A stretch of DNA of 64,000 nt from Escherichia coli (GCF_002854065.1 NZ_CP024147.1); one strand, 5' to 3'. Shown: positions 2,591 through 31,724, numbered from the stretch's first letter. The notes: generated by a model not told the origin, from the sequence alone. Program-made: numbers and translations.

Positions 2591-2698
2591 ATAAAATACC
2601 ATCAATGAAGTGATTAAGAAGTTATAGAGTAACAGGGAATTAATAAGATTCTTTTCTCTGAGACGCCAGAATATTTGTTCTGGCGTCTGATTTTGAGT

Positions 2699-4024: not shown

Positions 4025-4051
4025 GATGATTTCCTGTCGAAACGCGTTCAT

Positions 4052-6351: not shown

Positions 6352-6361
6352 GGATATAAAG

Positions 6362-8477: not shown

Positions 8478-8582
8478 GAGAGGTATGAAGTCTGGACATA
8501 AACCTGAAGGCGGCATACGAGGTTTGAATAGCGTTAAGGGCAACCTGACTTAACCCCGTTCCGTCATGGTTATGCTCCTCTT

Positions 8583-8623
8583 CTGTAAATATCCTGGCAT
8601 TACTAATGCCAGGATATTTACAG
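8583..8623. terminator. perfect 18-bp-arm palindrome (ctgtaaatatcctggcat / atgccaggatatttacag) between convergent ykgG and ykgH; putative bidirectional terminator
   Basis: Read directly from sequence. Confidence 0.5.
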
Positions 8624-8718
8624 TGAAAAAGACAGGCATCCATTCCTGAAAACGGGTTCCCTTCCCGGTCATTGTCACTTCAGCTTTATACAGGCACTCT
8701 CTATCAGAATGCTGTTTA

Positions 8719-9387: not shown

Positions 9388-9583
9388 AATATATCCAGAA
9401 AATAAAACCTGTCGCAGATAAGGTTGTATTAATAGTCTGTATCAGGAATGTTCGGGGTAAATATCAGCAAAAAACCAGCATCATGAATACTGGATATGAA
9501 GCATGAGAGTTACCCCTATGTTTTATATAACGATTCTGTCCCCATACCTGGAACGGTAACTCTCAATCTGATCGGTTCCTGAG

Positions 9584-11272: not shown

Positions 11273-11285
11273 ATAAACCTCCTGG

Positions 11286-17526: not shown

Positions 17527-18459
17527 TTAATTCTCCCGATGCAGTAAATCCTGATAGATCCCCGTTAATATGCCATTTGGCGCAAATTGTTTTTTAATCC
17601 ACTGCGTCACCTGGCCGGTGGCAGAGTGCTGGGTCGCCAGTAACATGCGTGAATCCTGGCGCGGGTTATGGATTTGTCGGGTAACCAGCAGGGATTGCGC
17701 CATCGCCTCACGGACCATGTAATCTGGCAAAAAACCAATCCCTTCACCTAAAATCTGGCACTGACATTTGGTGTTGAAATCTGGCACCAGAATTGACTCC
17801 TGCCCGTGCAGCAACCAGCCCACTTTTTTATTAATCGTATGCGCGGTGTCCTCCACCATAATATTAGGGTAGAGACGCAGTTGGCTTTCGGCGATGGGTT
17901 CCGGCACAAAGGCTAACGGGTGATCCGGGGCGATAGCAAAAGCCCAGCGAATCGCGCCAATCTCCGTGTAATCAATGCCGCCACCGTCCAGCAGCGTGTC
18001 GGGTGCGCCGATAGCGATATTTGCCTGATTATTAATAATCGCATCCCAGACGCCGTTATACACTTCGGTGGTGACGGTAATCTGGCAGGTAGGAAACTGC
18101 TTTTTCAGCACCTGTAATAAGCGTGCGGTGTGTTTGGGCGTATAAAGCAACTGATTAATACAAATGCGCACACGCGCTTCTATGCCCTGCGAAATAGTAT
18201 CGATGCTGCGTTTGATGGCGTGAAAATCATTCAGCAGGTCGGTAGCTTTGCGGAAAAAATAACGCCCGGACTCCGTTAACTCAATGCTGCGGGTACTGCG
18301 AGTGAACAGCACCACATCCAGCCCTGTTTCCATTCGCTTGATGGTGTAGCTAATGGCGGAAGTGGTTAAACCCAACTCTTCTGCGGCTTTACTGAAGCTG
18401 CCAAAACGCGCAGCGGTAGTAAATGCCAACAGATTCTCTTCGGTAAAAATTGAGTTCAT
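17527..18459 (-). CDS. yahB: LysR-family transcriptional regulator YahB
   Basis: 310 aa; N-terminal LysR HTH (FSKAAEELGLTTSAISYTIKRME). Confidence 0.85.
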   Translation of the reverse strand: MNSIFTEENLLAFTTAARFGSFSKAAEELGLTTSAISYTIKRMETGLDVVLFTRSTRSIELTESGRYFFRKATDLLNDFHAIKRSIDTISQGIEARVRICINQLLYTPKHTARLLQVLKKQFPTCQITVTTEVYNGVWDAIINNQANIAIGAPDTLLDGGGIDYTEIGAIRWAFAIAPDHPLAFVPEPIAESQLRLYPNIMVEDTAHTINKKVGWLLHGQESILVPDFNTKCQCQILGEGIGFLPDYMVREAMAQSLLVTRQIHNPRQDSRMLLATQHSATGQVTQWIKKQFAPNGILTGIYQDLLHREN

Positions 18460-18550: not shown

Positions 18551-19048
18551 TTAATACCCGTCGCGTTTAGTCGTCGCTTCGCTTAATTTTTGTCCACCAT
18601 ATTCTGAAATTATCCCCACGCAGTTACCCGCCAGAAAACCCAGTAATGTCACCGTCCAGTTCATCCCGCTGGCAAAAAACAGCGTCATGCCGAGAAAGCC
18701 ACCGGGAATAAATGACAGTAACCAGAAACGCCCTTGCCAGACCACCACCGCCGAGAAGGGTACGGTAGTAATTACGCTCGCCCAGAACGCGGACAGTCCA
18801 CTTACAGAGGCCAGCCAACCAGCAGTCAGCGCGGCGAAAAACGCCCACACCATCCCGGAATAATTAACCGCCAGACTTCTGATAAACCCCGATTTACCGC
18901 CGCCTGCGGCATAAAAACTGCAAAAGGCGACGAAGCCAATGGTTCCTAATAATTCCCATCCCTGAGAGAGCCCGACATGTGAAGACACTAACTGCCAAAG
19001 CCCTGCACAAATACCGACGGTGACACCCGTTGCCGTGAGTCCGTTCAT
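18551..19048 (-). CDS. yahC: inner membrane protein YahC
   Basis: 165-aa highly hydrophobic ORF. Confidence 0.75.
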   Translation of the reverse strand: MNGLTATGVTVGICAGLWQLVSSHVGLSQGWELLGTIGFVAFCSFYAAGGGKSGFIRSLAVNYSGMVWAFFAALTAGWLASVSGLSAFWASVITTVPFSAVVVWQGRFWLLSFIPGGFLGMTLFFASGMNWTVTLLGFLAGNCVGIISEYGGQKLSEATTKRDGY

Positions 19049-19305
19049 CTTGTTCCCCTCTGGTTAGACATGGACGAAAGCTACTCTTACATGTGCAGAC
19101 TATAGAGAAATAAAACCTGATTGAGTGAAAGGGTATCGGGTCAAAGAAACAAATATTGCACTACCGCACACTGCGAAAAGATTGTTGAACATTATTCAAC
19201 AAAAAGGCGAAATACGGCGAATTAAATTTAAGCGGGTTCTTTTATCAGATTATCGTTGCTATTCTCAATTCATCGAAAACAGCCACAAAAACCAGGGGAA
19301 TGTGA

Positions 19306-19911
19306 ATGAGTATAAAAAATCTACCTGCCGAATATTTATTGGCTGCACAACAGGGTGATATCGATAAAGTAAAAACCTGCCTTGCGCTGGGTGTCGATAT
19401 TAATACCTGCGATCGTCAGGGGAAAACGGCAATTACGCTGGCAAGTTTATATCAGCAATATGCTTGCGTTCAGGCATTAATTGACGCCGGAGCGGATATT
19501 AATAAACAAGATCATACCTGTTTAAATCCTTTTTTAATTAGCTGTCTGAACGATGATTTAACGCTACTACGAATTATTTTACCGGCTAAACCCGATCTTA
19601 ATTGCGTAACCCGTTTTGGCGGTGTCGGCCTGACGCCTGCCTGTGAAAAAGGCCATTTAAGTATTGTAAAAGAGCTTTTGGCGCATACGGAGATTAACGT
19701 TAACCAGACCAACCATGTAGGCTGGACGCCGCTACTGGAAGCGATTGTGCTTAATGATGGCGGGATTAAACAGCAGGCGATTGTCCAGTTATTGCTGGAA
19801 CACGGTGCCAGCCCGCATCTGACCGATAAATATGGCAAAACGCCGCTGGAACTGGCGCGGGAACGGGGCTTTGAAGAGATTGCGCAGTTGCTGATTGCGG
19901 CAGGCGCATAA
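19306..19911 (+). CDS. yahD: ankyrin-repeat protein YahD
   Basis: 201 aa; repeated ankyrin-like G-TPL--A motifs. Confidence 0.8.
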   Translation: MSIKNLPAEYLLAAQQGDIDKVKTCLALGVDINTCDRQGKTAITLASLYQQYACVQALIDAGADINKQDHTCLNPFLISCLNDDLTLLRIILPAKPDLNCVTRFGGVGLTPACEKGHLSIVKELLAHTEINVNQTNHVGWTPLLEAIVLNDGGIKQQAIVQLLLEHGASPHLTDKYGKTPLELARERGFEEIAQLLIAAGA

Positions 19912-19950: not shown

Positions 19951-20814
19951 GTGTGGGCGCTAACTGCGGATGCTGATTTTCTGGCGCAGCGGGGGCAAGG
20001 ACAGGTTGAACAGGTCTTTGCCAGAGCGGTAAATATCGCAATCCCGGCTCGCCAGCAGTTGCTGACGCTGCTTTGTGAAGAGTACGACAATGCGCCAAAC
20101 AGTTGTCGGTTGGCACTCACTCACTTTGATGGTCTGTTTCGGCATGGTGATAAGGTTCAGTTTGACGATCAAGGCATTACGGTTGGTCAACATCTTCATA
20201 TAGAGATGAGTCGTTGTCGGCGTTGGCTGTCCCCAACCTTGCAAATGACCGCTGTGAATTTTCACCTTATCGCCTGGCAACAGTGGCACGACATTATTCA
20301 TCAGCACCTGGGGGAAAATGAAACCCTGTTTAATTATCGCGGCGATAATCCGTTTTATCAGGCGTTAAATAAAGAATTACATATTAAACGACGGGCAGTT
20401 ATTCAGACAGTAAACGATAAGCAAAATATCGCCTCAGCGGTCGCCAGTATGATGGGGTTAGGGATTGGCCTTACGCCATCAGCCGACGATTATTTAACAG
20501 GTCTGGCGCTTATTTTATTTATTCCCGGGCATCCGGCGGAAAAATACAAAGAGGAATTTTATCTCGGTCTGCAACGCGGCAGAAATAATACCACATTATT
20601 AAGTGCTATAACGCTGGAAGCCGCATTACAACAACGTTGCCGGGAAAATATTCATCGTTTTATTCACAACATTATTTATGACATCCCTAGGAACGCAACT
20701 CAGGCAATAGAAAAAATTAAACATATTGGCTCCAGTTCCGGCTGCGACATGCTGTATGGCATGGCCGATGGTTGTGCGCTGAGCCAAACCTACGGAGGGA
20801 ATTATGTCAGTTAA
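19951..20814 (+). CDS. yahE: DUF2877 protein YahE (YlbF paralogue)
   Basis: 287-aa ORF; position and length match yahE; overlaps yahF start by 11 nt. Confidence 0.75.
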   Translation: MWALTADADFLAQRGQGQVEQVFARAVNIAIPARQQLLTLLCEEYDNAPNSCRLALTHFDGLFRHGDKVQFDDQGITVGQHLHIEMSRCRRWLSPTLQMTAVNFHLIAWQQWHDIIHQHLGENETLFNYRGDNPFYQALNKELHIKRRAVIQTVNDKQNIASAVASMMGLGIGLTPSADDYLTGLALILFIPGHPAEKYKEEFYLGLQRGRNNTTLLSAITLEAALQQRCRENIHRFIHNIIYDIPRNATQAIEKIKHIGSSSGCDMLYGMADGCALSQTYGGNYVS

Positions 20815-22351
20815 AATAGTCATTAAACCGAATACCTATTTTGATTCTGTCTCACTGATGTCTATCTCCACGCGTGCAAATAAACTCGACGGCGTCGAGC
20901 AGGCATTTGTGGCGATGGCGACCGAAATGAATAAAGGCGTGCTGAAGAATTTAGGACTGCTGACGCCGGAGCTGGAGCAGGCGAAAAACGGCGACCTGAT
21001 GATTGTCATCAATGGTAAATCGGGTGCGGACAATGAGCAGTTGCTGGCGGAGATTGAAGAACTGTTCAACACCAAAGCGCAAAGCGGCTCGCACGAGGCG
21101 CGTTACGCCACTATTGCCAGCGCCAAAAAGCATATCCCGGAAAGTAACCTGGCGGTGATTTCGGTCAACGGTCTGTTTGCCGCTCGCGAAGCGCGTCAGG
21201 CGCTGCAAAACGATCTCAACGTGATGCTGTTTTCCGATAACGTCTCAGTTGAAGATGAACTGGCGCTCAAGCAACTGGCTCACGAAAAAGGGCTGCTGAT
21301 GATGGGGCCAGACTGTGGCACGGCGATTATCAACGGCGCGGCGCTCTGTTTTGGTAACGCCGTGCGTCGCGGCAACATCGGTATTGTTGGCGCATCCGGC
21401 ACCGGCAGCCAGGAGCTGAGCGTCCGCATTCATGAATTTGGTGGCGGCGTTTCACAACTGATTGGCACCGGCGGGCGCGACCTGAGCGAGAAAATCGGCG
21501 GCCTGATGATGCTCGACGCCATCGGGATGCTGGAAAACGATCCGCAAACTGAAATTATCGCGCTGATTTCAAAACCTCCCGCGCCTGCGGTGGCCCGTAA
21601 AGTGCTGGAACGCGCCCGCGCCTGCCGCAAGCCGGTGGTGGTCTGCTTCCTCGGTCGTGGCGAAACGCCGGTTGACGAGCAGGGGCTACAGTTTGCTCGC
21701 GGCAGCAAAGAAGCGGCGCTAAAAGCGGTGATGCTCTCCGGCGTGAAACAGGAAAATCTCGACCTGCATACGCTTAACCAGCCGTTGATTGCGGATGTGC
21801 GTGCGCGTCTGCAACCCCAGCAGAAATACATTCGTGGCCTGTTCTGCGGCGGCACGCTGTGCGACGAAACCATGTTCGCGGTGATGGAAAAACACGGCGA
21901 TGTCTACAGCAACATTCAGCCCGATCCGGAATTCCGCCTGAAAGATATCAACCGCAGCATCAAACACACCTTCCTCGACTTTGGCGATGACGACTTCACC
22001 AACGGCAAGCCGCATCCAATGATTGACCCCACCAACCGCATCAGTCGCTTGATCGAAGAGGCGCGCGATCCAGAAGTGGCGGTGATCGTGATGGATTTTG
22101 TGCTCGGATTTGGATCGCATGAAGATCCGGTCGGCTCCACCATCGAGGCGATCAAAGAAGCGAAAGCGATCGCCGCTGCCGAAGGACGCGAGTTGATCAT
22201 TCTCGCCTATGTGCTGGGTACCGATCTTGATACGCCATCGTTAGAACAACAAAGCCAGATGCTGCTTGATGCCGGAGTGATTCTGGCGAGCAGCAGCACC
22301 AATACCGGATTGCTGGCGCGTGAATTTATCTGCAAAGGGGAGGAAGCCTGA
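20804..22351 (+). CDS. yahF: FdrA-like acyl-CoA synthetase / succinyl-CoA-synthetase-alpha-like protein YahF
   Basis: 515 aa; CoA-binding-like glycine-rich segments. Confidence 0.8.
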   Translation: MSVKIVIKPNTYFDSVSLMSISTRANKLDGVEQAFVAMATEMNKGVLKNLGLLTPELEQAKNGDLMIVINGKSGADNEQLLAEIEELFNTKAQSGSHEARYATIASAKKHIPESNLAVISVNGLFAAREARQALQNDLNVMLFSDNVSVEDELALKQLAHEKGLLMMGPDCGTAIINGAALCFGNAVRRGNIGIVGASGTGSQELSVRIHEFGGGVSQLIGTGGRDLSEKIGGLMMLDAIGMLENDPQTEIIALISKPPAPAVARKVLERARACRKPVVVCFLGRGETPVDEQGLQFARGSKEAALKAVMLSGVKQENLDLHTLNQPLIADVRARLQPQQKYIRGLFCGGTLCDETMFAVMEKHGDVYSNIQPDPEFRLKDINRSIKHTFLDFGDDDFTNGKPHPMIDPTNRISRLIEEARDPEVAVIVMDFVLGFGSHEDPVGSTIEAIKEAKAIAAAEGRELIILAYVLGTDLDTPSLEQQSQMLLDAGVILASSSTNTGLLAREFICKGEEA

Positions 22352-23757
22352 TGAGCCAGTCACTGTTTAGCCAACCATTGAACGTTATTAACGTCGGCAT
22401 CGCCATGTTTAGCGATGACCTGAAAAAGCAGCATGTAGAAGTGACTCAACTCGACTGGACGCCGCCGGGGCAGGGCAATATGCAGGTGGTGCAGGCGCTG
22501 GATAACATTGCCGATTCGCCGCTGGCAGACAAAATCGCCGCCGCTAACCAGCAGGCGCTGGAGCGCATTATCCAGTCGCATCCGGTGCTGATTGGTTTTG
22601 ATCAGGCGATTAACGTGGTGCCGGGCATGACGCCGAAAACCATTCTTCACGCCGGGCCGCCGATCACCTGGGAAAAAATGTGCGGCGCGATGAAAGGCGC
22701 GGTCACCGGAGCGCTGGTGTTCGAAGGACTGGCGAAAGATCTCGACGAGGCGGCTGAACTGGCGGCTTCCGGGGAGATCACCTTCTCGCCGTGTCACGAG
22801 CACGACTGCGTGGGATCGATGGCGGGTGTTACCTCGGCCTCGATGTTTATGCACATCGTAAAAAACAAAACCTACGGCAACATCGCTTATACCAACATGA
22901 GCGAGCAGATGGCGAAGATTTTGCGTATGGGCGCTAACGACCAGAGCGTGATTGACCGCCTGAACTGGATGCGTGATGTGCAGGGACCAATACTGCGCGA
23001 CGCGATGAAAATTATCGGCGAAATCGATCTGCGCTTAATGCTGGCGCAGGCGCTGCATATGGGCGATGAGTGCCATAACCGCAATAACGCCGGGACGACG
23101 CTGCTGATTCAGGCGCTGACGCCGGGGATCATTCAGGCAGGTTATTCCGTCGAGCAACAGCGCGAAGTGTTTGAGTTTGTCGCCAGCAGCGACTACTTCT
23201 CCGGCCCGACGTGGATGGCGATGTGTAAAGCGGCGATGGATGCGGCGCACGGCATCGAATACAGCACCGTGGTCACCACCATGGCGCGTAACGGCGTCGA
23301 GTTCGGCCTGCGGGTCAGCGGATTACCGGGGCAATGGTTTACCGGTCCGGCGCAGCAGGTCATCGGCCCGATGTTTGCCGGTTATAAGCCGGAAGATTCG
23401 GGGCTGGATATCGGCGACAGTGCCATCACCGAAACCTACGGTATTGGCGGATTTGCCATGGCGACCGCGCCTGCAATCGTCGCGCTGGTGGGTGGCACGG
23501 TGGAAGAGGCTATCGATTTCTCCCGTCAGATGCGCGAAATCACCCTTGGCGAAAACCCCAACGTCACCATTCCGCTGCTTGGTTTTATGGGCGTGCCGTT
23601 GGCAATCGACATCACCCGCGTGGGTAGCAGCGGCATTCTGCCGGTGATCAACACCGCCATCGCCCATAAAGATGCGGGCGTCGGCATGATTGGCGCGGGC
23701 ATTGTGCATCCACCTTTTGCCTGCTTCGAGAAAGCCATTCTTGGTTACGGCGTCTGA
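22351..23757 (+). CDS. yahG: DUF1116 protein YahG (YlbE paralogue)
   Basis: 468-aa ORF, start overlaps yahF stop (ATGA). Confidence 0.75.
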   Translation: MSQSLFSQPLNVINVGIAMFSDDLKKQHVEVTQLDWTPPGQGNMQVVQALDNIADSPLADKIAAANQQALERIIQSHPVLIGFDQAINVVPGMTPKTILHAGPPITWEKMCGAMKGAVTGALVFEGLAKDLDEAAELAASGEITFSPCHEHDCVGSMAGVTSASMFMHIVKNKTYGNIAYTNMSEQMAKILRMGANDQSVIDRLNWMRDVQGPILRDAMKIIGEIDLRLMLAQALHMGDECHNRNNAGTTLLIQALTPGIIQAGYSVEQQREVFEFVASSDYFSGPTWMAMCKAAMDAAHGIEYSTVVTTMARNGVEFGLRVSGLPGQWFTGPAQQVIGPMFAGYKPEDSGLDIGDSAITETYGIGGFAMATAPAIVALVGGTVEEAIDFSRQMREITLGENPNVTIPLLGFMGVPLAIDITRVGSSGILPVINTAIAHKDAGVGMIGAGIVHPPFACFEKAILGYGV

Positions 23758-23764
23758 CCTACAT

Positions 23765-23860
23765 GTTCATGCCGGATGCGGCGTGAACGCCTTATCCGGC
23801 CTACGAATGGCGCGAGAATTGTAGGCCTGATAAGCGTAGCGCATCAGGCAGTCTGGCGTT
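23765..23860. repeat. REP (repetitive extragenic palindromic) elements after yahG
   Basis: gccggatgcggcgtgaacgccttatccggcctac and gtaggcctgataagcgtagcgcatcaggca are canonical REP sequences. Confidence 0.85.
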
Positions 23861-23899
23861 GGTCATAACTCCATCACCCTCTGTAGCGGACATAACAAC

Positions 23900-24850
23900 A
23901 TGAAAGAACTTGTGGTCGTTGCCATTGGTGGCAACAGCATTATCAAGGATAACGCCAGCCAGTCGATTGAGCATCAGGCGGAGGCGGTGAAAGCCGTGGC
24001 CGATACGGTGCTGGAAATGCTGGCTTCCGATTACGACATTGTGCTGACCCACGGCAACGGGCCGCAGGTCGGGCTGGATTTACGCCGTGCGGAGATTGCC
24101 CACGAGCGCGAAGGGCTGCCTTTAACGCCGCTGGCGAACTGTGTGGCGGATACGCAAGGCGGCATCGGCTATCTGATCCAACAGGCGCTGAACAACCGAC
24201 TGGCGCGTCACGGTGAGAAAAAAGCCGTCACCGTGGTGACTCAGGTGGAAGTGGATAAAAACGATCCAGGGTTTGCTCATCCCACCAAGCCCATCGGCGC
24301 ATTCTTCAGTGAAAGTCAGCGTGACGAATTACAAAAGGCGAACCCTGACTGGCGTTTTGTTGAAGATGCCGGACGGGGCTATCGCCGCGTGGTCGCCTCG
24401 CCGGAACCGAAACGTATTGTCGAAGCACCGGCCATTAAGGCGCTGATCCAGCAAGGCTTTGTGGTGATTGGCGCGGGCGGTGGTGGTATTCCGGTGGTGC
24501 GCACTGAAGCGGGAGATTACCAAAGCGTGGACGCGGTTATCGACAAAGATCTCTCTACCGCGCTGTTGGCCCGTGAAATTCACGCCGACATTCTGGTGAT
24601 CACCACTGGCGTCGAAAAAGTGTGTATTCATTTTGGCAAACCGCAGCAGCAGGCGCTGGATCGCGTAGATATTGCCACCATGACCCGCTATATGCAGGAA
24701 GGGCATTTCCCGCCTGGCAGCATGTTGCCAAAAATCATCGCGAGCCTGACGTTCCTGGAACAGGGCGGCAAAGAAGTGATTATCACCACGCCGGAATGCC
24801 TGCCCGCGGCGCTGCGCGGTGAAACGGGCACCCATATTATTAAAACGTGA
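23900..24850 (+). CDS. yahI: carbamate kinase-like protein YahI
   Basis: 316 aa; amino-acid kinase family motifs (VVAIGGN, THGNGPQVG). Confidence 0.85.
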   Translation: MKELVVVAIGGNSIIKDNASQSIEHQAEAVKAVADTVLEMLASDYDIVLTHGNGPQVGLDLRRAEIAHEREGLPLTPLANCVADTQGGIGYLIQQALNNRLARHGEKKAVTVVTQVEVDKNDPGFAHPTKPIGAFFSESQRDELQKANPDWRFVEDAGRGYRRVVASPEPKRIVEAPAIKALIQQGFVVIGAGGGGIPVVRTEAGDYQSVDAVIDKDLSTALLAREIHADILVITTGVEKVCIHFGKPQQQALDRVDIATMTRYMQEGHFPPGSMLPKIIASLTFLEQGGKEVIITTPECLPAALRGETGTHIIKT

Positions 24851-24859
24851 GGACGTAAG

Positions 24860-26242
24860 ATGAAAGAAAGCAATAGCCGCCGTGAGTTTTTGAGCCAGAG
24901 CGGTAAGATGGTCACCGCCGCCGCGTTGTTTGGTACGTCTGTGCCGCTCGCCCATGCGGCGGTAGCTGGCAACCTAAACTGCGACGCGAATAACACCATG
25001 AAAATCACTGACCCGCACTACTATCTCGACAACGTGCTGCTGGAAACCGGTTTTGACTACGAAAACGGTGTGGCGGTGTAGACCCGCACGGCGCGCCAGA
25101 CCGTGGAGATTCAGAACGGTAAAATTGTTGCGCTGCGCGAGAACAAGCAGCATCCGGACGCCACGCTGCCGCACTATGACGCTGGCGGTAAGCTGATGCT
25201 GCCCACCACCCGCGACATGCATATTCATCTCGACAAAACCTTTTACGGCGGGCCGTGGCGCTCACTCAATCGTCCGGCTGGCACCACCATTCAGGACATG
25301 ATTAAGCTCGAGCAGAAAATGCTGCCGGAACTGCAACCGTATACTCAGGAACGGGCGGAAAAACTGATCGATTTATTGCAGTCGAAAGGCACTACCATTG
25401 CCCGCAGCCACTGCAATATCGAACCGGTTTCCGGCCTGAAAAATCTGCAAAATTTGCAGGCGGTGCTGGCGCGACGTCAGGCGGGCTTCGAGTGTGAAAT
25501 TGTCGCCTTCCCGCAGCACGGTTTGCTGCTGTCGAAATCGGAACCCTTAATGCGCGAAGCAATGCAGGCAGGGGCGCATTACGTTGGCGGGCTGGACCCA
25601 ACCAGTGTTGATGGCGCGATGGAAAAATCCCTCGACACCATGTTCCAGATTGCGCTGGACTACGACAAAGGCGTCGATATTCACCTGCACGAAACCACTC
25701 CGGCAGGCGTGGCGGCCATCAATTATATGGTTGAAACAGTGGAGAAAACGCCGCAACTGAAGGGCAAACTGACCATCAGCCATGCCTTTGCGCTGGCAAC
25801 ACTCAACGAGCAACAGGTAGATGAACTGGCTAACCGGATGGTGGTGCAGCAAATTTCTATCGCCTCGACGGTGCCGATTGGTACGCTGCATATGCCGCTC
25901 AAACAGTTACACGACAAAGGCGTAAAAGTGATGACTGGCACTGACAGCGTTATCGACCACTGGTCGCCTTATGGTCTGGGCGACATGCTGGAAAAAGCCA
26001 ATCTCTACGCGCAGCTCTATATTCGTCCTAACGAACAGAACCTCTCCCGTTCGCTGTTTCTAGCCACTGGCGATGTATTGCCGCTGAATGAAAAAGGCGA
26101 GCGTGTATGGCCAAAAGCGCAGGATGACGCCAGCTTTGTGCTGGTGGACGCCTCCTGTTCCGCCGAGGCGGTGGCGCGTATCTCGCCGAGAACCGCAACG
26201 TTCCATAAAGGGCAACTGGTGTGGGGGAGTGTGGCAGGTTGA
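24860..26242 (+). pseudogene. yahJ: yahJ, Tat-signal amidohydrolase/deaminase, interrupted by in-frame TAG at 25079-25081
   Basis: ORF 24860..25081 encodes a twin-arginine signal peptide (SRREFLSQSG...AHA); same frame continues after the TAG into the amidohydrolase domain ORF 25103..26242 (HIHLDKT metal-binding motif). Confidence 0.8.
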
Positions 26243-26540: not shown

Positions 26541-26951
26541 ATGACCATAAAAGAAAAAATCTTACAAAAATATCCCCATGCTTCCTTTTGTACTTTTGGC
26601 GATTCTGCAGCGTTGGCCGATCACCTCGCAACGTTGATTGCGACTGGTGTTAAAACAGCTTCCTGTGGTTCGCTGGCAGGATGTATTGAAGACAACGCAT
26701 TTCCGATGATTGGTGAGTATAAGATTGTAGAAAATAGCCGTGGTGAGCCTGTATGTGTTATCAGAGTGATTGGCCTGCATTTACTGCGCTTTTCTGATGT
26801 CACCGCGGAGCTTGCCCGTAAGGAAGGTGAAGGTGACCTCAGTCTTGAATATTGGCGTAATGAACACCGTCGTTTTTTCCAGGCAGAAGGAAGCTATTCA
26901 CCAGAAATGGACGTTATCTTTGAAGAATATGCCCTTATTGACGTTGTGTAG
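26541..26951 (+). CDS. ASCH-domain protein
   Basis: ORF track 26511..26951; start likely MTIKEKI; small beta-barrel ASCH-like sequence; annotation tentative. Confidence 0.55.
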   Translation: MTIKEKILQKYPHASFCTFGDSAALADHLATLIATGVKTASCGSLAGCIEDNAFPMIGEYKIVENSRGEPVCVIRVIGLHLLRFSDVTAELARKEGEGDLSLEYWRNEHRRFFQAEGSYSPEMDVIFEEYALIDVV

Positions 26952-27201
26952 ATAACTATTTATATACGCGAAATAAACTCACACACATAAAATATCGCTA
27001 ATTTTGTTTATTTTGCTATTTTTTACGTGATGAATGTCACACTTATTGTTGCTGCCCGTTTTGTCCATATTTATAACCATATTTTTAATAGCTGCCTGAA
27101 ATAGGGCTGTTTATTCTGCATAAAAATATTCGAAAATTCTTATTCTCTCCAGCGCGCTAATTTGGGCGAACACTTCCTGACTACCCTGCAATGAGGCTGA
27201 A

Positions 27202-28188
27202 ATGATGAATAAACGTTTTGTTATCAATATGGTGTCTTCGCTGTTATTAGGCGCTGCGCTAATTTCTGCGCCGCTCCAGGCAGCGGAAAAAGTCGTGGTG
27301 AATATTTCTAAAGTCGATGGTATGCCGTGGTTTAATCGCATGGGCGAAGGTGTGGTTGAGGCGGGTAAAGCCTTTGGTGTTAATGCGTCACAGGTGGGGC
27401 CTTCAAGTACTGATGCTCCGCAACAGGTTAAAATTATTGAGGATTTAATCGCCCGTAAGGTTAATGCAATTACTATCGTGCCAAACGATGCCAACGTGCT
27501 GGAACCGGTATTCAAAAAAGCGCGAGATGCCGGAATTGTGGTTCTGACCAACGAATCCCCCGGTCAGCCAAGTGCTAACTGGGATATCGAAATCATTGAT
27601 AACGAAAAATTTGCCGCTGAATATGTTGAGCATATGGCGAAACGCATGGGGGGCAAGGGCGGCTATGTGATTTACGTGGGTAGTTTGACCGTGCCGCAGC
27701 ATAACTTATGGGCTGACTTGCTGGTGAAATACCAGAAAGAGCATTACCCGGATATGCATGAAGTTACCCGCCGCATGCCGGTTGCCGAGAGTGTGGATGA
27801 CTCACGTCGTACCACACTGGACCTGATGAAAACCTATCCTGACTTAAAAGCGGTTGTCTCCTTTGGTTCAAACGGTCCGATTGGCGCGGGACGTGCGGTG
27901 AAAGAGAAACGGGCGAAAAATAAAGTCGCAGTCTATGGCATGATGATCCCTTCACAGGCGGCATCACTGATTAAAAGTGGTGATATCACCGAAGGGATTA
28001 CTTACGATCCGGCCTCTGCAGGTTACGCACTCGCAGCCGTCGCCAGCACGTTGCTGAAGGGTGAAGAGATCAAACCTGGATTAGAAATGCAGAATCTGGG
28101 TAAGGCCGACGTAGATATGGATAAGCGAATTATCCGTTTCCATAAGGTATTACTGGTCAACAAAGACAATATCGACTCACTTTATTAA
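27202..28188 (+). CDS. periplasmic sugar-binding protein of ABC transporter (LsrB/RbsB-like type I PBP)
   Basis: 328 aa with signal peptide (…ISAPLQAAEK); C-terminus …LLVNKDNIDSLY resembles LsrB …FNKDNIDKYDF (recall). Confidence 0.8.
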   Translation: MMNKRFVINMVSSLLLGAALISAPLQAAEKVVVNISKVDGMPWFNRMGEGVVEAGKAFGVNASQVGPSSTDAPQQVKIIEDLIARKVNAITIVPNDANVLEPVFKKARDAGIVVLTNESPGQPSANWDIEIIDNEKFAAEYVEHMAKRMGGKGGYVIYVGSLTVPQHNLWADLLVKYQKEHYPDMHEVTRRMPVAESVDDSRRTTLDLMKTYPDLKAVVSFGSNGPIGAGRAVKEKRAKNKVAVYGMMIPSQAASLIKSGDITEGITYDPASAGYALAAVASTLLKGEEIKPGLEMQNLGKADVDMDKRIIRFHKVLLVNKDNIDSLY

Positions 28189-28236
28189 TCCATTTCTTCG
28201 GGGCGAAAGCCCCGATTCTTATTGCCAGGGGATGTT

Positions 28237-29721
28237 ATGGAAACCTTCCTTTCCCTTCGTCATATCAACAAAACGTTTCATGCCACGCGAGCGCTGCGCG
28301 ATGTTTCTCTCGACTTTATGTCGGGTGAAGTGCACTGCCTTGCCGGGCAAAACGGCTGTGGTAAATCGACGTTGATCAAAATTATGTCCGGTGTTTATCG
28401 CCCGGATGAGGGAGCGGAAATTACGCTTGGTGGGAAAAAATGGTCAAAGCTGACACCCGCCGCTTCGGTGGCGCAGGGGATTCAGGTGATTTATCAGGAC
28501 CTCTCTTTATTTCCTAACCTGAGTGTCTGGGAGAATATCGCCGTGAATCACTATCACCACGGTCTGTTTGTTAACCGACGTCGTCTGCGTGAGGTGGCGC
28601 AGGCGGCAATGACCAGTATTAACGTCACATTGCCACTGGATACGCTCGTTTCTGAGCTTTCAATTGCCCGCTGTCAGCTGGTGGCAATTTGCCGTGCACT
28701 GGCGCAGGACGCACGGTTGATCGTGATGGATGAACCAACCGCTTCGCTGACCCATCAGGAAGTGCAAGGGTTATTACAGGTGGTGCATCAATTGCGGGAA
28801 CGCGGGATCTGCGTGGTCTTCGTCAGTCATCGTCTGGAAGAAGTGATGGAAGTTTCCGACCGTATTTCAGTGCTGAAAGATGGTGAGCTGGTCGGGACTT
28901 TTCCGGCTGCAGAGATGACCACAAAACAACTCGGTTTCCTGATGACCGGCCAGGAGTTTGAATATCAGGTGCGAGAGTTGTGGCAGGGAAAATCCAGCAC
29001 CCCGGTGCTGGAGGTGCGTAATTTAAGTCGTCATGGGGAATATCTAAATATTAACTTGCGGGTGGAAGCGGGCGAAGTGGTATCGATTGTTGGCCTGCTT
29101 GGTGCGGGGCGCACGGAATTATGTCTGAGTCTGTTTGGTATGACCCGACCGGATGCTGGCGAGATCCTCATCAACGGCCAGCCGGTTACACTGCATAGTA
29201 ACCAGGACGCCATCCGCCACGGTATTGGTTATGTTTCGGAAGATCGCATGTCGCGCGGTTTGGTGATGGCGCAATCTATTGAAGACAACATCATTAGCAC
29301 TGTTTTTCACAAGGTAAAAGATCGCTTCGGCTTTCTGAGTGAAGCTAAAGTGCGTGACCTGGTGGACAGGCTAATCAAGGCATTGACCATCAAAGTCTCT
29401 GATCCTCATCTCCCGGTGAATACGCTTTCTGGTGGTAACGCGCAGCGAGTATCGATCGCCAAATGGCTGGCGATTGGGCCACGACTGTTGATTCTCGATA
29501 GCCCGACAGTCGGTGTTGATATCGCCAACAAAGCAGGAATATACGGCATTATCAGCGATCTGGCGGCTCATGGCATTGCGGTATTGATGATCTGCGATGA
29601 AATTGAAGAAGCGTGGTATCAAAGCCACCGGATTTTGGTAATGCAAAAAGGTCAGATCACCCATAGCTTCCTGCCTGACAGCAGTTCTCAGGCCAGGATT
29701 GCGGAGGTGGTAAATGGCTGA
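28237..29721 (+). CDS. ABC transporter ATP-binding protein with duplicated ABC domains (RbsA/LsrA-like)
   Basis: ORF track 28222..29721; start at METFLSL; Walker A GQNGCGKST, signature LSGGNAQR, second degenerate ABC domain. Confidence 0.9.
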   Translation: METFLSLRHINKTFHATRALRDVSLDFMSGEVHCLAGQNGCGKSTLIKIMSGVYRPDEGAEITLGGKKWSKLTPAASVAQGIQVIYQDLSLFPNLSVWENIAVNHYHHGLFVNRRRLREVAQAAMTSINVTLPLDTLVSELSIARCQLVAICRALAQDARLIVMDEPTASLTHQEVQGLLQVVHQLRERGICVVFVSHRLEEVMEVSDRISVLKDGELVGTFPAAEMTTKQLGFLMTGQEFEYQVRELWQGKSSTPVLEVRNLSRHGEYLNINLRVEAGEVVSIVGLLGAGRTELCLSLFGMTRPDAGEILINGQPVTLHSNQDAIRHGIGYVSEDRMSRGLVMAQSIEDNIISTVFHKVKDRFGFLSEAKVRDLVDRLIKALTIKVSDPHLPVNTLSGGNAQRVSIAKWLAIGPRLLILDSPTVGVDIANKAGIYGIISDLAAHGIAVLMICDEIEEAWYQSHRILVMQKGQITHSFLPDSSSQARIAEVVNG

Positions 29722-30685
29722 ACTGAAAAAACGCCATGAATTCTGGCTGGCATTACTGATTGTGGTGCTGTTTGTTGGCCTTGCCTGGCGCAGCGACGAG
29801 TTTCTGACATTCGGTAATTTGTACGATCTCGCCAATAACTATGCCATGTTGACTATTCTCGCCTGTGGTTTGTTTGTGGTGTTGATTTCCGGTGGAATTG
29901 ATATTTCGTTTCCAGCAATGACCATCATTGCGCAATACGGCATGGTGCTGTTGCTGCAAAAAATTGGTGGCAACTTCGCTGTCGCGTTTGCACTGGCGGG
30001 CTGCATCGGCATTTTACTTGGCTTAATTAACGCCTTACTGGTTAATCGCCTACGGGTGCCTTCTATCATCATCACTATCTCGACGCTGAATATTTTCTAT
30101 GGCCTGCTGTTATGGTTGAGTAAAGGTGTGTGGCTGTACGACTTTCCGCCGTGGTTTGAGCAGGGGGTTATGTTGTTCAAGTACACCGATGCTGATGGCT
30201 ATGACTATGGCCTTGGTCTGCCGCTGATCGCCATGATTACGGTGGTGCTGCTAACAGCGTTTATCATGAATTTCACCAGTGTAGGGCGCAAAATTTATGC
30301 CCTTGGCGGGAACCGCGAATCAGCCAGTCGCATCGGCTTTAGCGTGCTGAAACTGCAACTTTTCGTCTATGGCTATATGGGATTGATGTCTGGCGCTGCG
30401 GGTGTAGTGCAGTCGTGGACGGTGATGACTGTCGCCCCCGATTCTCTTCTGGGTTATGAGCTGACAGTACTGGCTGCGGTGGTGCTTGGCGGCACTAGTT
30501 TGCTCGGCGGGCGCGGCACGTTAACCGGTACTTTGCTCGGCGTGGTGTTGTTGGCAGTGATGCAAAACGGGCTAAATTTATTGGGAGTCTCGTCTTACTG
30601 GCAAACATTGATCACCGGCATCATCATCGTTGCCAGCATTAGTGCCACGGCGTGGAGTCAGCATCAGAACCGGAGTCTGCTATGA
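29714..30685 (+). CDS. ABC transporter permease (RbsC/LsrC-like)
   Basis: 323-aa multi-TM ORF overlapping ATPase stop. Confidence 0.85.
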   Translation: MAELKKRHEFWLALLIVVLFVGLAWRSDEFLTFGNLYDLANNYAMLTILACGLFVVLISGGIDISFPAMTIIAQYGMVLLLQKIGGNFAVAFALAGCIGILLGLINALLVNRLRVPSIIITISTLNIFYGLLLWLSKGVWLYDFPPWFEQGVMLFKYTDADGYDYGLGLPLIAMITVVLLTAFIMNFTSVGRKIYALGGNRESASRIGFSVLKLQLFVYGYMGLMSGAAGVVQSWTVMTVAPDSLLGYELTVLAAVVLGGTSLLGGRGTLTGTLLGVVLLAVMQNGLNLLGVSSYWQTLITGIIIVASISATAWSQHQNRSLL

Positions 30686-31638
30686 AAAAATCGTGGCGTA
30701 ATAACGTTGAGTTTTACTTGATCGGCCTGCTGGTGCTAACTGTTGCCGCGTTCAGCATTACTATGCCGGAGATTTTCTGGTCGATAAGTAATTTCCAGTC
30801 CGTCGCTTCGCAAATGCCCGTGCTGGGCATTCTGGCGTTGGCTATGGCGGTGACCATGCTTTGCGGTGGCATTAACTTGTCAATTATAGCCACTGCTAAC
30901 GCCTGTTCACTGGTGATGGCGTGGGTGGCGACTCAGTATCCACCGGGTATTGCTACGGTTGTCGCTACGTTACTGGCGGGCGCTGGCGCGGCGGTGATAA
31001 TCGGTTTATGTAACGGCGTATTGATTGCTGGTATTCGAGTGTCGCCAATTCTTGCAACGCTTGGGATGATGACGTTGCTCAAAGGGATAAATATTCTGGT
31101 GACAGGTGGTAGCGCCATTGCCAATTATCCCTCATGGGTGCTGTGGTTGAATCATGCGCAATGGTTCGGTATTCCGCTACCGATGTGGTTGTTTGCCGCA
31201 GTGGCACTGGGGCTGTGGATATTGCTGGAGAAAACGCCGCTCGGTAAAGCCATTTACCTGATTGGGTCTAACGAACGAGCAACACTTTACTCCGGCATTA
31301 ACACTCGTCGGGTGCTGATTTGGGTTTATGTCATTTCCGCCTTGCTTTGTGCGGTAGCGGCATTTTTGATGATGTCGAAACTCAACTCGGCTAAGGCCTC
31401 TTATGGCGAATCGTACTTGCTGGTGTCAATCCTCGCGGCAGTACTCGGCGGGGTTAATCCGGACGGCGGCAGCGGGCGGATAATTGGTATGGTGCTGGCG
31501 CTGTTTCTTCTGCAAATTATTGAAAGCGGCTTCAATATTCTCGGTATAAGCCCCTACCTGACGATGGCCTTATGGGGAACGTTGCTGCTCTGTTTCATTC
31601 AGGCTCGCGGCATGTTGGGGCTGGATCGGGTGGTTTAA
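30682..31638 (+). CDS. ABC transporter permease (RbsC/LsrD-like)
   Basis: ORF track 30652..31638; start at MKKSWRNN (ATGA overlap with upstream permease stop). Confidence 0.85.
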   Translation: MKKSWRNNVEFYLIGLLVLTVAAFSITMPEIFWSISNFQSVASQMPVLGILALAMAVTMLCGGINLSIIATANACSLVMAWVATQYPPGIATVVATLLAGAGAAVIIGLCNGVLIAGIRVSPILATLGMMTLLKGINILVTGGSAIANYPSWVLWLNHAQWFGIPLPMWLFAAVALGLWILLEKTPLGKAIYLIGSNERATLYSGINTRRVLIWVYVISALLCAVAAFLMMSKLNSAKASYGESYLLVSILAAVLGGVNPDGGSGRIIGMVLALFLLQIIESGFNILGISPYLTMALWGTLLLCFIQARGMLGLDRVV

Positions 31639-31724
31639 ATATTGGCTATATTCAATGGACGCGTTTTGCCGCGATGACATATCAGGCGTCGCCAAATACA
31701 CATAGCTAATCAGGAGTAAACACA

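What the first reader, a model, noticed from the sequence alone, without database searches (positions are those of the whole stretch)
19951..26242. yahEFG-yahI-yahJ: paralogue of the allantoin-linked fdrA/ylbE/ylbF/carbamate-kinase module, with a Tat-exported amidohydrolase
YahF (FdrA-like), YahG (DUF1116), YahE (DUF2877) and YahI (carbamate kinase-like) mirror the gene set next to the allantoin cluster that is proposed to act as an oxamate carbamoyltransferase plus ATP-yielding carbamate kinase. Here it is joined to an amidohydrolase with a twin-arginine signal peptide (YahJ), and to an ankyrin-repeat protein, a LysR regulator and a membrane protein upstream. The substrate of this putative carbamoyl/ureido catabolic module is not established.
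Basis: partly seen in the sequence, partly recalled or inferred. Interest (0 to 1): 0.5.

Follow-up and report, generated by a model that had tools for sequence, protein, structure and literature searches.

The report
Decayed carbamoyl-to-ATP operon of E. coli
This is the E. coli yahDEFG-yahIJ operon, a worn-down copy (importer gene lost, one enzyme gene broken in this strain) of a widespread but uncharacterised gene cluster that probably makes ATP by splitting a carbamoyl group off an unidentified nitrogen-rich compound.

Summary
Paralogy to AllH/AllF/AllG/AllK is real (25-46% identity), and YahB is 39% identical to AllS.

Three corrections. First, in this window yahJ is a pseudogene (CAG→TAG at codon 74), and yahG has a 12-bp in-frame deletion absent from its two closest relatives. 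Second, AllFGH activity was demonstrated in 2024, not merely proposed. Third, Yah is not a local duplicate of All. It is a separate cluster conserved across phyla: YahG is 72-79% identical in Brevibacillus, Janthinobacterium, Bosea and Pasteurella, against 46% to AllG.

The recurring core of that cluster is an ankyrin protein, FdrA-like YahF, DUF1116 YahG, a carbamate kinase and a 515-aa UraA-fold permease. DUF2877 is usually present, and a ring deaminase is often present (Tat-exported YahJ or a guanine-deaminase-like enzyme).

The E. coli chromosomal form has lost the permease; REP elements fill the gap. Complete copies sit on IS-flanked IncF plasmids.

Most likely mechanism: ureide phosphorolysis to carbamoyl phosphate, then ATP. 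The substrate is unknown. This is a variant of a known kind, of moderate interest.

The parts
17527..18459 (-). yahB, a LysR-type regulator and the closest paralogue of AllS
   Evidence: 310-aa ORF. Best NCBIfam hits are AllS at 268 bits (below the 372 cut-off) and PunR at 239 bits. 39% identical to K-12 AllS, E 6e-73. Orthologues lie divergently next to yahD in 58 of 68 surveyed loci.
18551..19048 (-). yahC, a DUF1097 membrane protein and a lineage-specific addition
   Evidence: Pfam DUF1097, 1.4e-26. Found only in the 10 Escherichia/Kluyvera/Klebsiella/Raoultella/Pseudocitrobacter-type loci, which are exactly the loci that lack the permease.
19176..19275 (+). Conserved control region upstream of yahD. 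It holds a dyad TTGTTGAA-N5-TTCAACAA (19182-19202), a box GGCGAAT-N5-TTTAAGCGGG (about 19216-19236) and an extended -10-like TGcTATTCT (19257-19265), 40 nt before the yahD ATG.
   Evidence: Sequence read. The same blocks are conserved at 80% or more in 60 loci from many genera whose surrounding intergenic sequence has diverged. Assigning it as the YahB operator and promoter is an inference.
19306..19911 (+). yahD, an ankyrin-repeat protein; first gene of the operon and the signature component of Yah-type clusters
   Evidence: NCBIfam ankyrin matches and PDB ankyrin matches. Orthologues are 55-67% identical in Brevibacillus, Janthinobacterium and Pasteurella, and an Ank-TPR fusion takes its place in Bosea, Bacillus and Photobacterium.
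19951..20814 (+). yahE, DUF2877/AllH-family subunit
20804..22351 (+). yahF, an FdrA/AllF-like subunit related to the succinyl-CoA-synthetase alpha chain
   Evidence: NCBIfam FdrA, 493 bits against a 433 cut-off. 39% identical to AllF. Matches PDB 3dmy (FdrA) at 4e-83. Lacks the 40-aa C-terminal tail of AllF.
22351..23757 (+). yahG, DUF1116/AllG-family subunit, with a 12-bp in-frame deletion between 23743 and 23744
   Evidence: Pfam AllG, 6.8e-89. 46% identical to AllG. Matches PDB 3clq at 1.5e-195. Residues 12-53 are homologous to the C-terminal 42 residues of AllF. Deletion shown.
23758..23899 (.). REP-element spacer (the 'yahH' position), occupying the place where other genera carry the 515-aa permease gene
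   Evidence: REP sequences read. Weak Rfam naRNA4 (REP-derived) match at 23765-23801. This repeat accounts for the median of 31 matching places per genome. The permease lies between yahG and yahI in 44 of 54 surveyed clusters. The K-12 spacer is 421 nt.
23900..24850 (+). yahI, carbamate kinase family
   Evidence: NCBIfam NF009007, 650 bits against a 266 cut-off. The arcC equivalog scores 348 bits, just under its 358 cut-off. 38% identical to AllK/YbcF.
24860..26242 (+). yahJ pseudogene: a Tat-signal amidohydrolase of the CodA/AtzC branch, with a premature TAG at 25079-25081
   Evidence: Translation; TAG against CAG. With Q74 restored it scores 713 bits on NCBIfam PRK06846 (cut-off 447). Nearest solved relatives are AtzC-like enzymes (1e-43, 4e-28) and cytosine deaminase (1e-15 to 4e-19). 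The RR-x-FL motif is invariant in 11 orthologues.

Best explanation
The locus is yahB/yahC divergent from the yahDEFG-(REP)-yahIJ operon. It is the E. coli representative of a widely distributed 'Yah-type' gene cluster.

Proposed working of the complete cluster, as found in Citrobacter, Enterobacter, Serratia, Providencia, Aeromonas, Pasteurella, Janthinobacterium, Bosea, Brevibacillus, Bacillus and on E. coli IncF plasmids:
1. A dedicated 515-aa UraA-fold permease, often accompanied by an NCS1 permease, moves an N-rich heterocycle or ureide.
2. Where present, a ring-amine deaminase converts an amino/imino precursor to the oxo/ureide form. This is YahJ exported by Tat to the periplasm in Gram-negatives, or a cytoplasmic YahJ-like or guanine-deaminase-like CDA-fold enzyme elsewhere.
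3. YahF and YahG, usually with YahE and probably with the ankyrin protein YahD, phosphorolyse the carbamoyl group to carbamoyl phosphate, as their homologues AllF/G/H do with oxalurate.
4. YahI (carbamate kinase) converts carbamoyl phosphate plus ADP to ATP, NH3 and CO2.
5. YahB, an AllS-like LysR protein, activates transcription at the conserved dyad and promoter in front of yahD.

What is shown: homology, gene order, conservation, the signal peptide and the lesions. What is inferred: the chemistry, the role of YahD and the regulation. The substrate is unknown. The leading guess is a purine-breakdown ureide of the oxalurate/parabanate type or an imino analogue of one.

The E. coli chromosomal form is derived, because the permease gene has been replaced by REP elements. 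In this window the pathway has decayed further (yahJ nonsense codon, yahG four-codon deletion), so at least the periplasmic step is dead here.
For: - Homology to the biochemically proven AllFGH/AllK set (PMC11326118; PMC9843812).
- Compact gene spacing consistent with an operon: yahE/yahF overlap by 11 nt, yahF/yahG share ATGA, and yahI and yahJ are 9 nt apart. The literature treats yahDEFGIJ as an operon (PMC4765031).
- In 68 species-level loci anchored on YahJ, 54 carry yahD-[E]-F-G-...-I directly upstream, and 44 of those include the permease.
- Six loci anchored on the permease, from different classes and phyla, all carry F and G; five of the six also carry a carbamate kinase, and all six carry an ankyrin or Ank-TPR protein.
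- Yah-type proteins are far closer to each other across phyla than to All proteins: YahG 72-79% against 46%, YahF 61-72% against 36%, YahI 46-64% against 33-40%, YahB 61-71% against 34-37%.
- Deaminases of two unrelated folds occupy the same clusters. YahJ is of the CodA/AtzC type. The CDA-fold enzyme is closest to B. subtilis guanine deaminase, 6e-31.
- The regulators are of the AllS-like LysR or PucR type, which are the purine/allantoin regulator families.
- The Tat motif is invariant in 11 orthologues.
- A conserved dyad and promoter lie upstream of yahD in 60 loci.
- The permease model has pLDDT 83 and matches UraA, SVCT1, SLC26Dg, BicA and AZG structures.
Against: - No activity, expression condition or phenotype links YahEFG to any carbamoyl compound.
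- In K-12, deleting allF, allG or allFGH abolishes oxamate formation although yahEFG is intact. YahEFG is therefore either silent under those conditions or does not use oxalurate.
- The permease fold does not discriminate nucleobases from anions: NAT/AzgA and SLC26 structures score alike at 12-17% identity, and the family has no Pfam or NCBIfam model.
- YahE is poorly conserved and missing from 14 clusters, although AllH is needed for full AllFGH activity.
- The Photobacterium locus has no carbamate kinase next to F and G, and the Enterococcus-like locus lacks both an adjacent kinase and an ankyrin gene.
- A periplasmic deaminase feeding a cytoplasmic enzyme needs an importer, which E. coli chromosomes lack.
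Confidence: 0.6

Rival explanations
1. YahEFG is simply a second oxamic transcarbamylase. It would use the same substrate as AllFGH (oxalurate), dedicated to oxalurate or parabanate taken up from outside rather than made from allantoin. This is a specific case of the main explanation.
For: - Same three families plus a carbamate kinase.
- Regulators of purine/allantoin type.
- An oxalurate catabolic pathway with its own carbamate kinase, and an oxamate transcarbamylase induced by parabanic acid, were described biochemically in streptococci/enterococci (references cited in PMC6022934).
- The solved DUF1116 structure 3clq is about 75% identical to YahG. Its attribution to Enterococcus faecalis rests on memory only.
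- UraA-fold relatives include oxalate, fumarate and bicarbonate carriers.
- Partial rescue of a ΔallFGH strain by allGH alone (16%) or allFG alone (7%) could reflect YahF or YahE standing in.
Against: - A K-12 ΔallFGH strain makes no oxamate.
- YahG and AllG are only 46% identical, while Yah-type proteins stay above 70% across phyla, which suggests a distinct conserved specificity.
- Oxalurate needs no deaminase, yet deaminases of two folds recur in the clusters.
- The locus 100% identical to 3clq has no carbamate kinase or ankyrin gene adjacent.
Confidence: 0.2
2. In E. coli, and certainly in this strain, the operon is an evolutionary remnant with little or no present function.
For: - The permease was lost from the whole E. 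coli-type lineage and its place is filled by REP elements.
- The window carries the yahJ nonsense codon and the yahG deletion.
- A sister strain has IS1 between yahE and yahF.
- yahJ is absent from about 18% of complete genomes.
- No function is reported, and the genes are listed among the uncharacterised y-ome.
- No rescue of ΔallFGH.
Against: - The ORFs are intact and about 97% conserved in most E. coli. The YahJ 90% cluster has 7,034 member sequences, and 4,471 of 5,426 genomes carry the yahJ segment.
- The control region upstream of yahD is conserved.
- A ΔyahJ mutant is mildly outcompeted in a mouse ExPEC model (CI 0.70, p 0.02; PMC7549933).
- Ribosome footprints were reported in the yahG-yahI spacer of EHEC.
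Confidence: 0.25
3. YahF is an acyl-CoA synthetase, as its database name says, and the cluster activates or degrades an organic acid through a CoA thioester.
For: YahF contains CoA_binding and Ligase_CoA domains and matches succinyl-CoA synthetase alpha chains at 6e-17 and weaker. NCBI annotates it 'acyl-CoA synthetase FdrA'.
Against: - The homologous AllF, with AllG and AllH, is a transcarbamylase in vitro.
- A carbamate kinase gene lies next to F/G in the surveyed enteric clusters, the IncF-plasmid copy and five of the six permease-anchored clusters.
- No beta-subunit/ATP-grasp partner and no thioester-metabolising genes were seen in the loci.
Confidence: 0.05

Closest known systems
AllF-AllG-AllH oxamic transcarbamylase plus AllK carbamate kinase of E. 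coli (allFGHK operon; PMC11326118, PMC9843812)
   Same: The same three protein families plus a carbamate kinase, encoded adjacently. The regulator is a paralogue of AllS. The presumed chemistry is the same: an acyl-ureide plus phosphate gives carbamoyl phosphate, which yields ATP.
   Different: - A separate orthologous group (46% against more than 70% identity).
- Gene order is E-F-G...I instead of F-G-H-K.
- About 42-50 residues that form the AllF C-terminus sit at the N-terminus of YahG.
- An ankyrin protein, a dedicated permease and often a deaminase belong to the cluster.
- No upstream allantoin enzymes are present.
- DUF2877 is dispensable in some genera.
- The substrate is unknown.
Arginine deiminase and agmatine deiminase pathways (ArcABCD, AguABCD)
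   Same: The same logic: an imine/amine hydrolase makes a ureido compound, a catabolic transcarbamylase makes carbamoyl phosphate, carbamate kinase makes ATP, and a dedicated transporter serves the pathway.
   Different: The transcarbamylase is not of the OTC/ATC fold. The hydrolase is an amidohydrolase-superfamily or CDA-fold deaminase, not a guanidino-modifying deiminase. The hydrolase is periplasmic in Gram-negatives. The transporter belongs to another superfamily.
Cytosine deaminase CodA and N-isopropylammelide isopropylaminohydrolase AtzC (amidohydrolase superfamily)
   Same: YahJ shares their family (PDB matches 1e-43 to 1e-15) and the HxH metal motif. Both remove an exocyclic amine from a six-membered N-heterocycle.
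   Different: YahJ has a conserved Tat signal and about 50 extra N-terminal residues, and belongs to its own NCBIfam subfamily (PRK06846). Its substrate is unknown. It is a pseudogene in this window.
Oxalurate catabolic pathway of Streptococcus (Enterococcus) faecalis, with its own carbamate kinase (Vander Wauven et al. 1986; Tigier and Grisolia 1965; cited in PMC6022934)
   Same: An ATP-yielding breakdown of an external ureide through a transcarbamylase and a carbamate kinase, independent of allantoin degradation.
   Different: The genes were never identified in the sources I could read. The link to Yah-type F/G proteins (3clq-like locus) is only a lead.
Third FdrA/DUF1116/DUF2877 + carbamate kinase module of ExPEC (tkt1 island / GR29; PMC3349570, PMC12928451)
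   Same: The same transcarbamylase-like triad plus a kinase, joined to a hydrolase and a nucleobase-family permease.
   Different: Its front-end enzyme is a RutB-like isochorismatase-family hydrolase and its permease is NCS1/CodB-like. No ankyrin gene is listed.

Membership tests
AllFGH-type (non-OTC) carbamoyltransferase with linked carbamate kinase | Adjacent genes for an FdrA-like protein, a DUF1116/AllG protein and a DUF2877/AllH protein | tested here: met
   NCBIfam FdrA 493 bits, above the 433 cut-off. Pfam AllG 6.8e-89. Pfam AllH 2.2e-28. Pairwise E-values 5e-103, 3e-120 and 1e-10.
AllFGH-type (non-OTC) carbamoyltransferase with linked carbamate kinase | Carbamate kinase gene in the same transcription unit | tested here: met
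   yahI lies 142 nt after yahG on the same strand. It scores 650 bits on NF009007 (cut-off 266), though it falls under the arcC equivalog cut-off (348 against 358). Co-transcription itself was not tested.
AllFGH-type (non-OTC) carbamoyltransferase with linked carbamate kinase | Orthology to AllF/AllG/AllH (same subgroup, hence the same substrate oxalurate) | tested here: not met
   Yah proteins from five phylogenetically distant hosts are 61-79% identical to E. coli YahF/G but only 35-48% identical to AllF/G. The F/G gene boundary also differs.
AllFGH-type (non-OTC) carbamoyltransferase with linked carbamate kinase | Catalysis of ureide + phosphate <-> carbamoyl phosphate + amide | not testable with these tools
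   Needs an enzyme assay. Published data show only that chromosomal yahEFG does not replace allFGH during anaerobic growth on allantoin.
Tat (twin-arginine) exported proteins | N-terminal S/T-R-R-x-F-L motif, a hydrophobic region and an A-x-A cleavage site | tested here: met
   The N-terminus reads MKESNSRREFLSQSGKMVTAAALFGTSVPLAHA. RR-x-FL is invariant in 11 orthologues from different genera. YahJ is listed as a predicted Tat substrate in PMC7549933.
Tat (twin-arginine) exported proteins | An intact passenger protein behind the signal | tested here: not met
   TAG at codon 74 in this window. Only a 73-residue product would carry the signal.
CodA/AtzC branch of the amidohydrolase superfamily | Family-level sequence match, including the HxH metal-binding motif | tested here: met
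   With Q74 restored, PRK06846 scores 713 bits (cut-off 447). PDB matches: AtzC-like 1e-43 and CodA 1e-15 to 4e-19. HIHLD is invariant.
CodA/AtzC branch of the amidohydrolase superfamily | Deaminase activity on a defined heterocycle | not testable with these tools
   No assay is possible. The cytosine deaminase NCBIfam models score far below their cut-offs (101 against 438, 83 against 483), so YahJ is not CodA.
Deiminase-type ATP-yielding pathways (ADI / AgDI) | Transcarbamylase of the OTC/ATC fold | tested here: not met
   No OTC/ATC-family match for any protein of the locus in NCBIfam or Pfam. The resemblance is functional only.
NCS2/AzgA nucleobase permeases (for the permease of complete Yah clusters; absent from the window) | Match to the Xan_ur_permease / AzgA family models | tested here: inconclusive
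   No Pfam, NCBIfam or PDB sequence match. Only 1 of 20 distant relatives matches Xan_ur_permease, and 1 matches a SulP-like family. The fold matches NAT, AzgA and SLC26 carriers about equally. hhalign against GhxQ gives probability 8%.

The most novel reading that the evidence does not exclude
The Yah-type cluster encodes a previously undescribed, horizontally mobile, ATP-yielding pathway for a nitrogen-rich heterocycle or ureide. A plausible source is oxidative damage to purines: parabanate, oxalurate and their imino analogues, or biuret- and triazine-like compounds. In this reading an ankyrin-repeat protein is an obligatory partner of a non-canonical transcarbamylase, and a periplasmic (Tat) deaminase prepares the substrate. 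E. coli K-12 would be a poor model for it because it has lost the importer.
Probability: 0.3. Interest if true: 0.7.

Novelty: new variant of a known kind. Interest (0 to 1): 0.5.

Why it matters
Six to eight E. coli 'y' genes, and their relatives in many gut, soil and pathogenic bacteria, still have no assigned function. The comparison shows that they belong to a coherent cluster conserved across phyla, built around the recently discovered AllFGH type of transcarbamylase and a carbamate kinase. That points to a way of gaining ATP and ammonia from a nitrogen-rich compound without respiration.

The work also explains why studying K-12 has been unproductive: its copy lacks the importer. Better experimental systems are Citrobacter or Enterobacter, or the IS-flanked IncF-plasmid copy.

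The constant presence of an ankyrin-repeat protein in a bacterial catabolic enzyme cluster is unusual and could be tested directly. For this particular strain, the result is that the pathway is partly dead.

Tried and rejected
- Subfamily of the permease. Sequence searches of Pfam, NCBIfam and the PDB found nothing. hhalign against GhxQ and XanQ was weak. Foldseek could not separate nucleobase carriers from anion carriers. Pfam on 20 distant relatives was uninformative. I therefore do not rely on the database name 'xanthine permease'.
- Hidden RNA elements or internal signals. Rfam at relaxed threshold found only a REP-derived sub-threshold match. The promoter/terminator consensus scan found fewer sites than the shuffled controls and none on the + strand inside the operon.
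- Mapping the classical enterococcal oxalurate pathway onto a Yah-type cluster. It remains a lead only.
- Literature on YahB. It was among the ChIP-exo candidates, but no targets are given in the text I could read.
- The idea that yahEFG is a recent E. coli duplication of allFGH. Rejected by the cross-phylum identities.
- The 3,074 of 5,426 genomes covering at least 80% of the region is a lower bound. REP matches exhausted the 40-piece limit in 1,958 records, so I used the yahJ-specific query instead (4,471 of 5,426).

Full report
**What is in the window**

The stated interval runs exactly from the GTG start of yahE (19951) to the stop of yahJ (26242). The ORF list gives yahE 19951-20814, yahF 20804-22351, yahG 22351-23757, yahI 23900-24850 and a yahJ frame at 24860-26242, all on the + strand. 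Upstream are yahD (19306-19911, +), yahC (18551-19048, -) and yahB (17527-18459, -).

The DNA is 97% identical to most E. coli genomes and 99.7-99.8% identical to two strains, 100416 and CUWW06. These carry the annotations yahE / fdrA / yahG / yahI / yahJ.

Family assignments were confirmed directly:
- YahE matches Pfam AllH (DUF2877), 2.2e-28.
- YahG matches Pfam AllG (DUF1116), 6.8e-89.
- YahC matches DUF1097.
- YahF matches NCBIfam FdrA at 493 bits (cut-off 433).
- YahI matches the carbamate kinase subfamily at 650 bits (cut-off 266).
- YahJ matches amidohydrolase subfamily PRK06846 at 713 bits (cut-off 447).

The gene junctions are tight. yahE and yahF overlap by 11 nt, yahF and yahG share ATGA, and yahI and yahJ are 9 nt apart.

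**Lesions specific to this sequence**

- Translating 24860-26242 shows an in-frame stop at codon 74 (GVAV*TRT). The codon is TAG where E. albertii and Pseudocitrobacter have CAG.
- An 81-nt probe around the stop matches exactly in only 2 of 5,426 complete genomes. Both annotate yahJ as a pseudogene with an internal stop, while 4,471 genomes carry the segment.
- The longest ORF left (25103-26242, GTG) lacks the signal peptide and about 81 residues.
- yahG is 468 aa rather than 472 aa because of a 12-bp in-frame deletion. Even the two closest strains lack this deletion.
- CUWW06 additionally has IS1 between yahE and yahF.

**Paralogy with the allantoin cluster**

Against K-12 proteins:

| Pair | Identity | E-value |
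|---|---|---|
| YahF / AllF | 39% | 5e-103 |
| YahG / AllG | 46% | 3e-120 |
| YahE / AllH | 25% | 1e-10 |
| YahI / AllK (YbcF) | 38% | 1e-57 |

. AllS is also the best NCBIfam match of YahB, followed by PunR, both below their cut-offs.

The boundary between the F and G genes differs between the two systems. The last 42 residues of AllF align with residues 12-53 of YahG (E 4e-8). The same holds in every Yah-type locus examined. That fits a physical association of the F and G proteins.

AllFGH is no longer hypothetical. Purified AllF-AllG-AllH has oxamic transcarbamylase activity, and AllK is a catabolic carbamate kinase (PMC11326118, PMC9843812). Neither paper mentions the yah genes.

**Yah is a separate cluster conserved across phyla**

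I anchored a scan of one genome per species on an alignment of YahJ orthologues and annotated the 80 loci by local BLAST. Of the 68 loci with enough upstream DNA:

| Loci | Architecture |
|---|---|
| 30 | yahB \| yahD-E-F-G-permease-I-J |
| 14 | the same without yahE (Enterobacter, Leclercia, Lelliottia, Silvania, Huaxiibacter, Zophobihabitans; Aeromonas likewise) |
| 10 | the E. coli form: yahC present, permease absent (Escherichia, Pseudocitrobacter, Kluyvera, Raoultella, Klebsiella) |
| 4 | only yahB \| yahD-yahJ (Cedecea, Erwinia and others) |
| 10 | yahJ alone (Xenorhabdus, Shewanella, Labrys and others) |

The 'permease' is a 515-aa membrane protein, 83-88% identical across these genera. 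It sits exactly where E. coli has the REP-filled 'yahH' spacer.

Anchoring on that permease instead gave clusters in distant hosts:
- Brevibacillus: PucR | Ank-E-F-G-NCS1-CK-CDA deaminase-permease.
- Bacillus: the same parts with an Ank-TPR fusion, plus a cytoplasmic YahJ homologue.
- Janthinobacterium: Ank-E-F-G-permease-CK-LysR, with no deaminase.
- Bosea: PucR | permease-AnkTPR-E-F-G-CK, with a cytoplasmic YahJ-like enzyme alongside.
- Pasteurella: permease | Ank-E-F-G-CK-LysR-YahJ, where YahJ has an SRRHFL signal.
- Photobacterium: permease-AnkTPR-F-G-AstE-like-NCS1, with no carbamate kinase next to F and G.

Identities to the E. coli proteins are 72-79% for YahG, 61-72% for YahF, 55-67% for YahD, 46-64% for YahI and 61-71% for YahB. 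Against the All counterparts they are only 33-48%. Yah is therefore an orthologous system of its own. Its hallmark is the ankyrin protein, which the all cluster lacks.

The cluster is also mobile. 142 of 5,426 E. coli genomes carry the permease gene, mostly on plasmids. On IncF plasmid pMTY1886 the set LysR | Ank-E-F-G-permease-CK is flanked by IS elements and has no yahJ. ExPEC strains have a third, differently equipped module.

**The accessory parts**

- *YahJ.* Its nearest solved relatives are AtzC-like enzymes (1e-43, 4e-28) and cytosine deaminase (1e-15 to 4e-19). The RR-x-FL motif and the HIHLD metal motif are invariant in 11 genera.
- *The Firmicute deaminase.* This CDA-fold enzyme is closest to B. 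subtilis guanine deaminase (6e-31). Two unrelated deaminase folds in the same cluster argue that this step is a ring deamination.
- *The permease.* It has no Pfam, NCBIfam or PDB sequence match. Its AF2 model (pLDDT 83) shows the 7+7 UraA fold. It matches SVCT1, UraA, AZG, SLC26Dg and BicA about equally, at 12-17% identity. In a library of 1.84 billion representatives the tight family collapses into one 50%-identity cluster, with 448 relatives at E ≤ 1e-30. Those relatives are also essentially unclassified. The database name 'xanthine permease' is therefore not evidence of substrate.
- *YahE.* It has a confident model but no known structural neighbour.
- *Solved relatives.* YahF corresponds to PDB 3dmy, and YahG to 3clq at about 75% identity.

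**Regulation**

The 100 nt before yahD are conserved in 60 loci. They contain a dyad TTGTTGAA-N5-TTCAACAA (19182-19202), a GATGAAT-N5-TTTAAGCGGAT box and an extended -10-like TGcTATTCT (19257-19265). I read this as the YahB operator and an activator-dependent promoter, which is an inference. No consensus sigma-70 promoter or terminator lies on the + strand inside the operon. The yahG-yahI spacer is a REP pair. An EHEC ribosome-profiling paper treats yahDEFGIJ as one operon.

**Mechanism and its limits**

The best-supported reading is an ATP-yielding 'carbamoyl harvest'. It is organised like the arginine and agmatine deiminase pathways but uses the AllFGH-type enzyme. The steps would be uptake, optional deamination, phosphorolysis to carbamoyl phosphate by YahF/G (with E and D), and ATP formation by YahI.

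Published data add two points:
- K-12 ΔallF, ΔallG and ΔallFGH strains make no oxamate, so chromosomal yahEFG does not replace allFGH under those conditions.
- allGH alone and allFG alone restore 16% and 7% of oxamate in the ΔallFGH strain, and a ΔallH strain keeps 1.2 mM. That could reflect YahF or YahE standing in. This is my inference; the authors do not discuss it.

The substrate cannot be named from sequence. The regulator types (AllS-like, PucR), the NCS1 allantoin-like permease and the deaminases point to a purine- or pyrimidine-derived heterocycle or ureide. Oxalurate/parabanate and biuret- or triazine-like compounds are candidates. Comammox MAGs place allFGHK next to triuret/biuret genes, and old enterococcal biochemistry describes an oxalurate pathway with its own carbamate kinase.

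A ΔyahJ ExPEC mutant is mildly attenuated in mice (CI 0.70).

**Verdict**

The locus is a decayed member of a distinct, widespread and partly plasmid-borne variant of the AllFGH/carbamate-kinase system. It has an ankyrin partner and a lost importer, and its substrate is still unknown.

Noticed in passing
window 26541-31640: An ASCH-domain gene and a four-gene sugar-type ABC transporter lie between yahJ and yahK. The binding protein (27202-28188) resembles RhaS/LsrB. In K-12, yahK follows yahJ after 376 nt, so this is a strain-variable insertion of about 4.9 kb.
   Followed up: partly
window 23758-23899 (K-12: L098 9745-10165): The yahG-yahI spacer is 142 nt here but 421 nt in K-12, where it is annotated as yahH. 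It consists of REP elements and gives a sub-threshold Rfam naRNA4 match. It occupies the slot of the permease gene found in other genera.
   Followed up: yes
window 22384-22509 versus L002 22220-22345: The C-terminal 42 residues of AllF are homologous to residues 12-53 of YahG. The F/G gene boundary has therefore shifted by about 50 codons between the All and Yah systems, and this holds in every Yah-type locus checked.
   Followed up: yes
L091 (E. coli plasmid pMTY1886_IncF, NZ_CP128971.1) 4116-12549: A complete Yah-type cluster with the permease but without yahJ sits between IS1, IS3, ISL3 and IS100 elements on an IncF plasmid. 142 of 5,426 E. coli genomes carry this permease gene, with 106 of the matching places on plasmids.
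   Followed up: partly
L003 (strain CUWW06) 2420-3117: An IS1 element is inserted between yahE and yahF in one of the two strains that share the yahJ nonsense mutation. This is further sign of decay in this lineage.
   Followed up: no
L094 4451-5614, L095 10571-11839, L089 10685-11917: Proteins with no recorded Pfam match in the Bacillus and Photobacterium clusters are ankyrin+TPR fusions. They are 53-54% identical to the Bosea protein, and their N-terminal halves are 37-39% identical to YahD.
   Followed up: partly
L093 9751-11155: In the contig whose product is 100% identical to PDB 3clq, the DUF1116 gene is split by a frameshift into 77-aa and 384-aa ORFs. A 393-aa membrane protein of another family follows, and no carbamate kinase or ankyrin gene is adjacent.
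   Followed up: partly
published data, PMC11326118 Tables 1 and 3: In a ΔallFGH strain, plasmids carrying only allGH or only allFG restore 16% and 7% of oxamate, and a ΔallH strain keeps 1.2 mM. Cross-assembly with YahF or YahE would explain this, but the authors do not discuss it.
   Followed up: no
L079 (Zophobihabitans entericus) 3317-5770: The open frame containing the YahF homologue is about 818 codons long, and no separate yahE was detected. This may be a YahE-YahF fusion, or just an extended upstream frame.
   Followed up: no
window about 44000-51400: By synteny with strain 100416, the window also carries codBA (cytosine permease and deaminase) and cynRTSX (cyanase, which yields carbamate). 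The cyn and lac ORFs were seen at 48042-57771; codBA was placed by synteny only. No functional link to yah was tested.
   Followed up: no
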